Origin: Escherichia coli
Lineage (GTDB): Bacteria; Pseudomonadota; Gammaproteobacteria; Enterobacterales; Enterobacteriaceae
Direction: 5' to 3' (one strand)
Length of the DNA stretch: 378 bases
Assembly: GCF_003334305.1 (NCBI RefSeq)
Contig: NZ_QOWS01000081.1
A model generated the notes under the pieces. The model did no database searches and was not told the DNA's origin. It saw only the letters and a list, made by a program, of their open reading frames with translations. Of this stretch, positions 1-378 are shown piece by piece (the first letter of the stretch is position 1; each line of letters opens with the position of its first letter). The position numbers and the translations under genes were made by a program.

Positions 1-378
1 CGCCTCCCCCGGCAGCAGCGGCTCAAAGTGAATGCTCCGCCCGCCGTTGTCGTTGAGTACCAGTGCATCATCGCGTAGCTGTAAGCGGATATCAGAAGGC
101 GCTTTCCAGCCGGGGCCAAACACTCCCACCGGCGCGGGTGTCCTGGTCCGGTAGCTGCTGTAGGTGCGGGAGAGAATGAACGGCAGCGGGCCGGGCAGCG
201 CAAGGTCCGTCTCGCCGGGCAGCACCTTCGCCCCCAGCAGCGGATTTACCGGGTTGCCCGAAGTCATCCCGCCCGGACACACCGAGCACGCCACGCCGGT
301 GGGCGCGCCAATTCTTACACCTGCCGAACCCTGGACAATGGGACCGCCATACTGAGTCATATCTCCCTGACGCGCCGC
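1..378 (-). CDS. rhs: Rhs-family polymorphic toxin protein, N-terminal portion (PAAR-like domain plus linker); partial at both ends, true start just beyond position 378, gene continues beyond position 1
   Basis: Seen in sequence: the reverse complement read in phase from position 378 gives 126 sense codons and no stop. The translation begins AARQGDMTQYGGPIVQGSAGVRIGAPTGVACSVCPGG, which from memory matches the conserved N-terminus of E. coli-type Rhs proteins (MSGKPAARQGDMTQYGG...), followed by the Pro/Gly-rich stretch LPGETDLALPGPLPFILSRTYSSYRTRTPAPVGVFGPGWKAPSDIRLQLRDD. GC3 in this frame is about 73% by hand count, consistent with a genuine reading frame. The paralog (rhsA/B/C/D-like) cannot be resolved from 378 nt, so only a family-level symbol is given. 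Confidence 0.9.
220..378 (-). other. Region encoding a PAAR-like domain (PAAR_RHS type) at the N-terminus of the Rhs protein; boundaries approximate, and the first residues of the PAAR motif lie outside the window
   Basis: The translation shows the pattern (P)AARxGD...GGPIVQGSxxVRIGxPxxG...C-x-x-C, which resembles the PAARxGD / GSxxVxIGG signature of PAAR repeat proteins. Established knowledge: many Rhs proteins carry an N-terminal PAAR-like domain. The domain end was placed by eye, not by HMM. Confidence 0.55.

What the first reader, a model, noticed from the sequence alone, without database searches (positions are those of the whole stretch)
277..288. Cys-x-x-Cys pair (CSVCPGG) inside the PAAR-like region, a candidate metal-binding site
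Minus-strand codons TGC (286-288) and TGT (277-279) encode two cysteines spaced CxxC, immediately followed by PGG. PAAR domains are known to coordinate a metal ion near the apex using His/Cys residues, so these would be candidate ligands. Only two ligands are visible in the window; the others would have to come from elsewhere in the fold.
Basis: partly seen in the sequence, partly recalled or inferred. Interest (0 to 1): 0.3.

Follow-up and report, generated by a model that had tools for sequence, protein, structure and literature searches.

The report
Conserved cysteine pair in Rhs seal peptide
The two cysteines are real and almost invariant in this family of E. coli-type Rhs toxins, but they lie just after a one-third PAAR repeat, in the short peptide that plugs the toxin cage next to its self-cleavage site, not at a PAAR metal-binding tip; what they do is untested.

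Summary
The window's minus strand encodes residues 6-131 of an E. coli RHS core protein ("rhsD"), which sits directly downstream of a vgrG. The CSVCPGG codons are exactly where the finding says (C36, C39).

The pair is strongly conserved. CxxC is present in 135 of 141 unique homologues from Enterobacterales and Comamonadaceae, and both Cys codons vary synonymously.

Homology to PAAR covers residues 2-29 only, which is one of the three repeats. The usual DxxxH/C zinc-ligand position is DxxxY. The CxxC lies after the point where PAAR homology ends, in the 18-residue peptide before the conserved self-cleavage site (N47|P48).

In Tse5, the closest solved relative, that peptide is threaded into the cage through the DUF6531 plug. 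Relatives with a full three-repeat PAAR and their own ligands still carry the motif. In a model of a three-repeat relative, the cone folds but the CxxC tail does not join it. No conserved third or fourth ligand exists, and Tse5 has no cysteine at either aligned position.

Best reading: the pair belongs to a GxACSxCPGG seal/anchor motif that contacts an invariant plug arginine. Metal binding, a redox latch or a role in cleavage remain open and could be tested by mutagenesis. Interest is moderate.

The parts
1..378 (-). Coding sequence for residues 6-131 of an RHS element core protein (100% identical to 'rhsD' WP_000014859.1 of E. coli C); the gene continues beyond both ends of the window
   Evidence: It is the only frame without stops. 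There is a 100% megablast match to annotated RHS core genes, found in 3872 of 5426 complete E. coli genomes with a median of 3 copies each. Residues 1-131 match NCBIfam RHS_core at E 6.6e-85.
307..378 (-). Residues 6-29 of a single PAAR-type repeat (the full repeat is residues 2-29, SGKPAARQGDMTQYGGPIVQGSAGVRIG). This is one third of a PAAR domain, with Tyr15 (window 349-351) where canonical PAARs carry a His or Cys zinc ligand
   Evidence: phmmer and hmmsearch align residues 2-29 to the last repeat of 4jiv_D (67-93), 9rce_c (71-98) and 8gra_J. The NCBIfam T6SS_PAAR_dom profile matches only at positions 68-94 of 94, at 14.4 bits against a cut-off of 124. Pfam gave no PAAR hit on the window peptide. 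AlphaFold2 leaves residues 1-35 below pLDDT 50.
253..306 (-). Residues 30-47 (APTGVACSVCPGGMTSGN): the seal/anchor peptide between the PAAR-type repeat and the N-terminal self-cleavage site
   Evidence: It has the same length and register as Tse5 residues 30-47. In the 2.45 A cryo-EM structure those residues are anchored in the shell cavity by the DUF6531 plug (PMC10684867; sequence; alignment). The 'seal peptide' concept comes from RhsA (PMC8765631).
268..297 (-). Conserved motif G33-x-A35-C36-S37-x-C39-P40-G41-G42
   Evidence: Column conservation over 141 unique homologues: G33 97%, A35 97%, C36 96%, S37 96%, C39 99%, P40 96%, G41 87%, G42 90%. The flanking positions 30-32 and 43-45 are variable.
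277..288 (-). The CxxC itself (C36-S37-V38-C39)
   Evidence: Searches give the coordinates. CxxC is present in 135 of 141 unique sequences and CxxxxC in two more. The codons alternate TGC/TGT. In the profile alignment to Tse5-NT, C36 aligns with D36 and C39 with S39, both of which contact Tse5 R116 (= RhsD R119, invariant).
226..258 (-). Predicted N-terminal self-cleavage site G46-N47 | P48-V49-N50-P51-x-L53-G54-A55-K56
   Evidence: Tse5 is cleaved at K47|P48, and PDB chain 8cp6_B starts at PVNPMLGSK. G46, P48, V49, G54 and K56 are invariant in 141 sequences. Cleavage of RhsD itself was not tested.
25..258 (-). DUF6531 domain (residues 46-123), the N-terminal plug of the Rhs cocoon. It includes the invariant R119 (window 37-39) and the non-conserved H122 (window 28-30)
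   Evidence: Pfam PF20148 matches at E 5.2e-20. The AlphaFold2 model of residues 1-1200 has mean pLDDT 84.6 and best matches Tse5 8cp6_B (E 1.3e-84, TM 0.77/0.84). R119 is 46/46 and H122 13/46 in the alignment of long members.

Best explanation
C36 and C39 belong to a short conserved motif, G-x-A-C-S-x-C-P-G-G. The motif lies in the 18-residue 'seal/anchor' peptide that links a one-third PAAR repeat (residues 2-29, presumed to bind VgrG) to the N-terminal self-cleavage site (N47|P48) of the Rhs toxin cage.

By homology with Tse5, this peptide runs along a strand of the DUF6531 plug and threads into the cocoon. That keeps the small N-terminal adaptor attached to the cage after cleavage and helps close the cage. 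The residues aligned with the two cysteines in Tse5 (D36 and S39) both touch the invariant plug arginine (R116 in Tse5, R119 here). The two thiols therefore most likely face that arginine and act as a local clamp for docking the peptide in the plug.

They are not the zinc ligands of a PAAR tip.

What is shown: the coordinates, the conservation, the position relative to PAAR homology and the cleavage motif, and the absence of conserved partner ligands.

What is inferred: the threaded location, which comes from Tse5 and not from a structure of this protein, and the contact with the arginine.

What is unknown: whether the thiols are free, metal-bound or oxidised.
For: - PAAR homology ends at G29.
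- The peptide from residue 30 to 47 has the same length and register as in Tse5, whose residues 30-47 are anchored in the shell by the plug, and which is cleaved at K47|P48.
- The profile alignment puts C36 and C39 opposite Tse5 D36 and S39. The Tse5 paper reports that both contact R116. The equivalent R119 is 46/46 invariant.
- The RhsD model's best structural match is Tse5.
- The motif is conserved at 87-99% per position between variable flanks, in 141 unique sequences from two bacterial orders.
- It occurs whether the protein has one, two or three PAAR repeats, and whether or not those repeats carry His/Cys ligands.
- In the Mixta three-repeat model, the cone (residues 1-83) folds and matches the PAAR structures 4jiw_D and 4jiv_D, while residues 84-98, which include the CxxC, stay below pLDDT 50.
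Against: - Packing alone rarely keeps two cysteines at 96-99%; Ser, Ala or Val would normally be tolerated. The conservation therefore points to thiol chemistry that this explanation leaves unspecified.
- Tse5 itself lacks the pair, so the structural inference rests on a relative that differs at exactly these residues.
- MAFFT and HMMER agree on the Tse5 register, but a two-residue shift that pairs Tse5 C41 with C39 cannot be excluded.
- AlphaFold2 places the segment with low confidence: the 31-40 block averages pLDDT 43 and the 41-50 block averages 72.
- No model coordinates were available, so no distances could be measured.
Confidence: 0.5

Rival explanations
1. The two cysteines chelate a metal ion (most likely zinc) within the seal peptide and plug region. 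The remaining ligands would be lineage-specific, or come from water or carboxylates, or come from another chain such as a second Rhs N-terminus or the VgrG C-terminus. The metal would staple the peptide in place.
For: - Both cysteines are near-invariant, and the CxxC-P-G-G spacing resembles a zinc knuckle (my own knowledge of knuckle motifs).
- Two relatives keep a pair with different spacing (GCADxxCK), and one has four cysteines in this stretch (ECGKACSPCPTC in L065).
- A sister clade adds His and Cys in the plug (YVNxEHGxxCGLLG).
- Partner VgrGs carry conserved cysteines at 'xCG' and at the near-terminal '(W/L)NC'.
- PAAR-like proteins with all-cysteine metal sites do exist, for example IglG/DUF4280 (PMC5014421).
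Against: - Only two ligands are conserved. Candidate partner positions 85, 89 and 122 vary (H/T/Y/R, V/C, T/E/Q/K).
- The only other conserved His in residues 1-470 (H353) is also present in Tse5, which lacks the pair.
- The text of the Tse5 paper (2.45 A map) mentions no zinc or bound metal.
- One partner VgrG (L050) has Thr instead of the terminal Cys while its Rhs keeps the CxxC.
Confidence: 0.2
2. One of the cysteines takes part in the still unexplained N-terminal self-cleavage at N47|P48, for example as a nucleophile or by positioning the scissile bond.
For: - The mechanism of N-terminal cleavage is unknown in every Rhs studied. [quoted passage not shown]
- The motif lies 8-11 residues upstream of the invariant G|PVNPxLGAK site and is conserved together with it.
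- The second Cys followed by Pro is the best-kept part: C39 is at 99%, and both P0224 and Tse5 keep one Cys near it.
Against: - Tse5 cleaves at the same site, yet in the best alignment it has no cysteine at either aligned position.
- RhsA and Rhs1 also cleave but have no CxxC in their seal regions.
- Known self-cleaving nucleophiles normally sit immediately next to the scissile bond (own knowledge).
- Mutating a nearby cysteine in RhsA (C538A) had no effect on cleavage.
Confidence: 0.1
3. The pair is a redox latch. It stays reduced in the attacker's cytoplasm and forms a disulfide in the target's periplasm, which changes the seal peptide and helps open the cage or release the toxin.
For: - CxxC is the classic spacing for a reversible disulfide.
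- T6SS cargo passes from a reducing into an oxidising compartment.
- Some T6SS effectors need DsbA in the target cell (PMC5792426).
- The CxxxxC variants keep two cysteines.
Against: - There is no thioredoxin-like fold around the motif.
- Killing by Serratia Rhs2 did not depend on DsbA in the target, although that protein belongs to a different Rhs subfamily.
- If the segment is buried in the plug, as in Tse5, an oxidase could not easily reach it.
Confidence: 0.08
4. One reading: the cysteines are ligands of the zinc site at the tip of a PAAR cone.
For: - PAAR domains do bind zinc through His and Cys residues.
- The full-PAAR relatives show only three obvious DxxxH/C ligands, so a fourth ligand from downstream is conceivable.
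Against: - The cysteines lie after the end of PAAR homology.
- RhsD has one repeat only, with Tyr at the ligand position.
- The Mixta three-repeat PAAR has no His or Cys in any repeat, and its CxxC tail is not folded onto the cone in the model.
- Conservation of the CxxC is independent of whether PAAR ligands are present.
- The equivalent segment in Tse5 is inside the shell.
Confidence: 0.05

Closest known systems
Tse5 (PA2684/RhsP1) of Pseudomonas aeruginosa: N-terminal fragment Tse5-NT and its anchoring in the shell (PDB 8cp6; PMC10684867)
   Same: Both have a 47-residue N-terminal fragment with a cryptic PAAR-like stretch followed by an 18-residue peptide, and the cleavage site is in the same register (x47|P48-V-N-P-x-L-G-x-K). 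Both have a DUF6531 plug with the same invariant Arg. Tse5 is the best sequence and fold match to RhsD. In both, the gene lies next to its cognate vgrG.
   Different: Tse5 has D36 and S39 where RhsD has C36 and C39, and it has a single Cys at position 41. Its PAAR-like stretch is more degenerate (LPVSHVGE versus KPAARQGD). RhsD and most of the family therefore carry a cysteine pair that the only solved structure cannot illustrate.
Seal peptide and plug of Pseudomonas protegens RhsA (PDB 7q97; PMC8765631)
   Same: In both, the peptide between the PAAR domain and the N-terminal cleavage site closes the cocoon together with the plug. In RhsA it is proposed to be pulled out on firing. The cleavage site is at an x|P-V bond (H304|P305).
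   Different: RhsA has a full split PAAR with prePAAR and transmembrane helices, plus an anchor helix. Its seal region (..TQAVVASTH|PV..) has no CxxC.
Canonical PAAR zinc site (VCA0105 4jiv, c1882 4jiw; PF05488)
   Same: RhsD residues 2-29 are homologous to one PAAR repeat, including the PAAR motif, the Asp and the GS..V.IG strand.
   Different: A canonical PAAR has three repeats and four His/Cys ligands near the tip, in DxxxH/C motifs. RhsD has one repeat, DxxxY at that position, and its cysteines lie outside the fold.
prePAAR / split-PAAR effectors (Ahmad et al. 2020, PMC7773334)
   Same: They set a precedent for a PAAR that is incomplete within one stretch of sequence and is completed by a separate piece supplying a ligand (AARxxDxxxH). 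The RhsD N-terminus reads AARQGDMTQY.
   Different: In prePAAR effectors the rest of the PAAR domain lies downstream in the same chain. In RhsD there is no further PAAR sequence; DUF6531 starts at residue 46.
IglG / DUF4280 PAAR-like proteins with four conserved cysteines (PMC5014421)
   Same: They are PAAR-related T6SS tip proteins in which cysteines, not histidines, bind the metal, and each cysteine is needed for function.
   Different: They have four cysteines spread across a complete PAAR-like fold. RhsD has two adjacent cysteines outside the fold.

Membership tests
RHS element core protein / T6SS Rhs cocoon effector | N-terminal DUF6531 plug followed by a YD-repeat shell that forms a closed cocoon | tested here: met
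   Pfam DUF6531 matches at E 5.2e-20. NCBIfam RHS_core matches residues 1-131 to profile positions 1-131 at E 6.6e-85. The AlphaFold2 model of residues 1-1200 has pLDDT 84.6 and matches Tse5, RhsA and other Rhs cocoons at TM 0.7-0.84.
RHS element core protein / T6SS Rhs cocoon effector | Genetic linkage to a VgrG spike gene | tested here: met
   A vgrG (TIGR03361, E 1.7e-184) ends 66 bp upstream of the identical gene in E. coli C. About half of the 80 related loci also have a vgrG immediately upstream. Many E. coli copies are orphan loci without one.
Tse5-like Rhs with a short, cleaved N-terminal adaptor | N-terminal self-cleavage before P-V-N-P, releasing a ~5 kDa fragment that stays bound inside the shell | not testable with these tools
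   The sequence motif and register are identical to Tse5. Whether RhsD is actually cleaved and retains the fragment needs biochemistry.
Canonical PAAR domain (PF05488 / NF033420) | Three PAAR repeats forming a cone of about 90 residues | tested here: not met
   Only residues 2-29 match, to profile positions 68-94 of 94, at 14.4 bits against a cut-off of 124. Pfam gave no PAAR hit on the window peptide. DUF6531 begins at residue 46. AlphaFold2 leaves residues 1-35 below pLDDT 50.
Canonical PAAR domain (PF05488 / NF033420) | Tetrahedral zinc site made of four His/Cys, mostly in DxxxH/C motifs near the tip | tested here: not met
   RhsD has D11-x-x-x-Y15 and no His or Cys in residues 1-35. The ligand rule comes from PMC7773334 and PMC5014421.
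Zinc knuckle / zinc ribbon type site (two CxxC-like knuckles, four ligands) | A second pair of conserved Cys/His ligands | tested here: not met
   No other conserved Cys or His column exists in residues 1-470 apart from H353, which is shared with Tse5, a protein that lacks the pair. Positions 85, 89 and 122 are variable. Ligands supplied by another chain could not be tested.
Thioredoxin-like redox CxxC | CxxC at the start of a helix within a thioredoxin fold | tested here: not met
   The model shows no helix or thioredoxin fold. The segment is coil between a disordered N-terminus and the plug. No Pfam thioredoxin hit was found.
Bacterial lipoprotein lipobox (L-[AS]-[GA]-C) | A signal peptide with a hydrophobic core directly before the Cys | tested here: not met
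   G-V-A-C looks superficially like a lipobox, but residues 1-35 (MSGKPAARQGDMTQYGGPIVQGSAGVRIGAPTGVA) have no hydrophobic core, and they are homologous to a PAAR repeat. This was judged from the sequence only; no signal-peptide predictor was run.

The most novel reading that the evidence does not exclude
The single 28-residue repeat is a true one-third PAAR. Three Rhs N-termini, one for each VgrG protomer, would assemble into a symmetric PAAR-like cone on the spike, so that three toxin cages ride on one VgrG trimer. The CxxC just below the cone would act between chains, for example as a shared thiol or metal cluster with the other two copies or with the conserved near-terminal cysteine of the partner VgrG ((W/L)NC), locking the assembly.

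Support:
- A Mixta relative carries three tandem copies of this same repeat type. They are 63-70% identical to each other and 61-75% identical to the E. coli repeat.
- Pfam recognises that N-terminus as PAAR, and one of its five models folds like c1882.
- VgrG-Rhs fusions with three Rhs per spike are already known.
Probability: 0.15. Interest if true: 0.7.

Novelty: new variant of a known kind. Interest (0 to 1): 0.35.

Why it matters
Rhs toxins are among the commonest T6SS weapons, and E. coli genomes carry several copies. Two steps of their mechanism are still unexplained: how the N-terminal fragment is cut off, and how the cage is opened after delivery.

A two-cysteine motif that is almost invariant, sits 8-11 residues from the cleavage site, and lies in the very peptide thought to seal the cage gives a cheap and precise handle on both questions through point mutants. 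No paper in the library I could search describes it.

The observation that the PAAR-like part is only one repeat of three also raises the question of how many Rhs cages load onto one spike.

If the pair turns out to be only a packing feature, the result is a modest annotation of a well-known protein family.

Tried and rejected
Rejected on the alignment to PAAR structures and profiles, on the Tse5 structure, and on relatives with full PAAR domains.
- **A third or fourth ligand in the plug.** H122 aligns with Tse5 G119, which contacts the N-terminal fragment, and looked promising. It is H, T, Y or R across the family. The HGxxCG His/Cys of a sister clade are absent from the E. coli clade.
- **Co-variation with VgrG cysteines.** The partner VgrGs do carry conserved cysteines, but one VgrG lacks the terminal Cys while its Rhs keeps the CxxC, and about half of the loci have no adjacent vgrG. 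No link could be shown.
- **Lipobox reading of G-V-A-C.** Rejected because there is no signal peptide.
- **Supplementary Table 2 of the Tse5 paper** (contacts between the N-terminal fragment and the shell). It is held only as an image, so no per-residue environment could be extracted.
- **The original PAAR structure paper** (PMC3792578) is not held. The ligand rules were taken from later papers instead.
- **First protein search** with residues 1-68. It returned only near-identical enterobacterial fragments. The diversity came from the 50%-identity cluster representatives and from the genome scan.
- **AlphaFold2 geometry.** The tool returns no coordinates, so S-S distances and neighbouring residues could not be measured. 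Only confidence and secondary structure were usable.
- **Plus-strand ORFs in the window** (38-63 aa). They were not pursued, because the minus-strand frame has overwhelming homology.

Full report
**What the window is.** Only one of the six frames stays open across all 378 bases. It is the minus-strand frame, and it reads AARQGDMTQYGGPIVQGSAGVRIGAPTGVACSVCPGGMTSGNPVNPLLGAKVLPGE.... The DNA is 100% identical to the 5' part of annotated RHS element core genes. Matches occur in 3872 of 5426 complete E. coli genomes, with a median of three copies per genome. In E. coli C the identical gene (annotated rhsD, 1407 aa) lies 66 bp downstream of a vgrG and upstream of ydcD. The window therefore covers residues 6-131 of the protein. 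The full N-terminus is MSGKPAARQGDMTQYGGPIVQGSAGVRIGAPTGVACSVCPGGMTSGN followed by PVNPLLGAKVL.

**Checking the observation.** TGC at 288-286 and TGT at 279-277 encode C36 and C39, followed by P40-G41-G42. They are the only cysteines in the first 548 residues. A CxxC is expected by chance about 0.01 times in a fragment of this length. Conservation is the real evidence.

I pooled representatives of clusters at 50% identity with 80 loci from a scan of named genomes. The scan pattern, G[SN]PVNPxLG[AI], does not include the cysteines. Among the 141 unique sequences, C36 is present in 136 and C39 in 139. CxxC is intact in 135, and two more have CxxxxC. The loci come from many Enterobacterales genera and from Comamonadaceae, Azoarcus, Ignatzschineria and Chromatiales. 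Both codons alternate between TGC and TGT across 78 distinct DNA contexts, so selection acts on the amino acid. The conserved block is G33-x-A35-C36-S37-x-C39-P40-G41-G42, and its flanks are variable.

**Where the pair sits relative to PAAR.** Pfam finds only DUF6531, from residue 46 onward, and no PAAR match on the window peptide. Sequence and profile searches of the PDB align residues 2-29 to the last of the three repeats of solved PAAR proteins: 4jiv_D residues 67-93, where that chain ends, 9rce_c residues 71-98, and 8gra_J. The NCBIfam T6SS PAAR profile matches only at its positions 68-94 of 94, at 14.4 bits against a cut-off of 124. RhsD therefore has one PAAR-type repeat, not a PAAR domain, and that repeat ends at G29, seven residues before C36.

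Canonical PAARs hold a zinc ion with four His/Cys ligands, typically in DxxxH/C motifs (PMC7773334; PMC5014421). Where VCA0105 has DAVDC and SalCis10 has DTTSH, RhsD has DMTQY. Residues 1-35 contain no His or Cys.

**What the segment is.** The closest solved relative by sequence and by fold is Tse5 of P. aeruginosa. Tse5 cuts itself at K47|P48, and PDB chain 8cp6_B starts at PVNPMLGSK. Its 5 kDa N-terminal fragment is disordered over residues 1-29, while residues 30-47 are anchored in the inner cavity of the shell, mainly by the DUF6531 plug (PMC10684867). RhsD has the same count of 47 residues before an invariant P-V-N-P-x-L-G-A-K.

For P. protegens RhsA, the equivalent stretch between PAAR and the cleavage site was named the seal peptide. 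It is proposed to close the cocoon together with the plug and to be pulled out on firing (PMC8765631). The CxxC therefore lies in the seal/anchor peptide.

The Tse5 N-terminal sequence (supplement) aligns by both MAFFT and HMMER with D36 opposite C36, S39 opposite C39, and its only cysteine, C41, opposite G41. The Tse5 paper states that R116 contacts D36 and S39. The equivalent RhsD residue, R119, is invariant. Both RhsD thiols therefore probably face that arginine. This is an inference from homology, not an observation.

**Structure prediction.** An AlphaFold2 model of RhsD 1-1200 is confident for the shell (mean pLDDT 84.6). Residues 1-35 stay below pLDDT 50, the 31-40 block averages 43, and the 41-50 block averages 72. 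This mirrors the disorder of Tse5 residues 1-29 and gives no support for a folded metal site in the monomer. The tool returns no coordinates, so distances could not be measured.

**The CxxC is independent of the PAAR metal site.** Some relatives have a complete three-repeat PAAR with DxxxH, DxxxH and DxxxC, and they still carry ...NVFIG-DGADGR-ACSACPG...|PVNP further downstream (P0194, P0206, P0207, P0215, P0218).

A Mixta tenebrionis relative (L037) has three tandem copies of the E. coli-type repeat with no His or Cys in any of them (DNTAG, DETAA, DATSG), followed by ACSACPGG. Its repeats are 63-70% identical to each other and 61-75% identical to the E. coli repeat. Pfam calls it a PAAR motif at E 7.5e-13. 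Its best AlphaFold2 model folds residues 1-83 and matches c1882 and VCA0105 (TM 0.68/0.71 and 0.60/0.63), while residues 84-98, which contain the CxxC, stay below pLDDT 50. Two caveats apply: only one of the five models was confident, and I deepened the alignment with artificial triple concatemers of single repeats.

**Search for further ligands.** In the first 470 residues of 46 long members, the only conserved Cys/His columns are C36, C39 and H353. Tse5 also has H353, although it lacks the pair. RhsD H122 aligns with Tse5 G119, a contact of the N-terminal fragment, but across the family this position is H, T, Y or R. A sister clade has extra His and Cys in the plug (YVNxEHGxxCGLLG) that the E. 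coli clade lacks.

A few variants hint at chemistry that depends on a pair of cysteines: GCADxxCK in P0239 and P0247, and ECGKACSPCPTC in L065. Single-cysteine exceptions also exist: Tse5, P0187 and P0224.

Partner VgrGs carry conserved cysteines at xCG and at (W/L)NC near or at the C-terminus. One VgrG (L050) lacks the latter while its Rhs keeps the CxxC, and about half of the loci have no adjacent vgrG.

**Literature.** In the library I could search, no paper describes this motif. Tse5's N-terminus is called a cryptic PAAR-like domain. The mechanism of N-terminal cleavage is unknown for Tse5 and RhsA. Killing by Serratia Rhs2, which belongs to a different subfamily, does not need DsbA in the target cell.

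**Conclusion.** The proposal that it supplies ligands of a PAAR apex metal site is not supported.

The best-supported reading (about 0.5) is a conserved seal/anchor motif that docks the N-terminal adaptor peptide in the DUF6531 plug, beside the self-cleavage site, with the thiols facing an invariant arginine. The chemistry that keeps two cysteines nearly invariant remains open:
- a metal staple with variable or inter-chain ligands (about 0.2);
- a role in self-cleavage (about 0.1);
- a redox latch (about 0.08).

Point mutants and metal analysis would decide between them.

The most novel reading still allowed is that the single repeat is a one-third PAAR that assembles three Rhs cages on one spike, with the CxxC acting between chains (about 0.15).

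Noticed in passing
window 307-378 (minus strand; the repeat begins just beyond the window at residue 2): The 'PAAR-like region' is a single 28-residue PAAR repeat, one third of a domain, with Tyr at the zinc-ligand position (DMTQY). A Mixta relative (L037, Rhs start at nt 2214) carries three tandem copies of this repeat type. Pfam recognises it as PAAR, and its best model matches solved PAAR proteins. P0176 has three repeats that each carry DxxxY. This raises the possibility that three Rhs N-termini together cap one VgrG trimer.
   Followed up: partly
window 226-258 (minus strand): G46-N47|P48-V-N-P-x-L-G-A-K is the predicted N-terminal self-cleavage site, in the same register as Tse5 K47|P48. 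G46, P48, V49, G54 and K56 are invariant in 141 sequences. The residue before the cut varies (N, S, H or K), which argues against a general Asn-cyclisation mechanism.
   Followed up: partly
L001:5793-7919; L002:1-291; L003:3-482; L005:1-504; and the upstream ORFs of about 35 other loci: The partner VgrG proteins share two conserved cysteines in their last ~60 residues. One is in 'L-x-C-G'. The other is in '(W/L)NC', which is either the very last residue (...LDKLNC*) or is followed by a Pro-rich tail (...INWNCGA..PP..). In a VgrG trimer that would place three cysteines at the blunt end of the spike, where PAAR binds. L050 has Thr instead.
   Followed up: partly
L004 (P0194) compared with L001, L002, L003 and L005: The sampled single-repeat Rhs genes have a vgrG ending 58-86 bp upstream. 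The sampled full three-repeat PAAR relative has no vgrG upstream; an EamA-family gene lies there instead. The Mixta three-repeat gene does have a vgrG upstream, so this is not a strict rule.
   Followed up: partly
plug region, residues 81-96 of relatives such as P0181, P0205, P0217, P0230 and P0233: A sister clade has YSSYVNxEHGxxCGLLG[HY]GW, which adds a His and a Cys in the DUF6531 plug where the E. coli clade has T85 and V89. The Cys is present in about 41 of 141 sequences. It is unknown whether these residues lie near the CxxC.
   Followed up: partly
L065:2936-3334 and the sequence upstream of it; P0239; P0247: There are variant seal peptides. L065 has four cysteines (ECGKACSPCPTC) after a two-repeat PAAR. 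P0239 and P0247 have GCADxxCK (CxxxxC) together with Ile in place of Ala in PVNPxLG[I]K.
   Followed up: no
L006, L027, L065, L044: E. coli-type Rhs sequences (100% and 82% identical to the query) appear in metagenome-assembled genomes labelled Lentisphaerae and Collinsella. A related one appears in a Propionibacteriaceae MAG. L044 is flagged UNVERIFIED_CONTAM. These are most likely binning or contamination artefacts, not true hosts.
   Followed up: no
L047 and L048 (Citrobacter amalonaticus); proteins P0162, P0170, P0183, P0225 and others: Some copies have a disrupted N-terminus, with only MTSGN in frame before PVNP. Several database 'proteins' are out-of-frame translations of this region. 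This fits with frameshifted or decaying Rhs copies and miscalled starts.
   Followed up: no
L002:5350-7233 and L005:5483-7366: In two metagenomic loci a second Rhs gene with the same kind of N-terminus (including the CxxC) follows the first Rhs and a small presumed immunity gene. These are tandem Rhs arrays.
   Followed up: no
window 32-154, 63-179 and 164-355 (plus strand); 92-289 (minus strand, another frame): Four short ORFs of 38-65 aa overlap the Rhs frame. They have no support and are most likely by-products of the GC-rich coding sequence.
   Followed up: no
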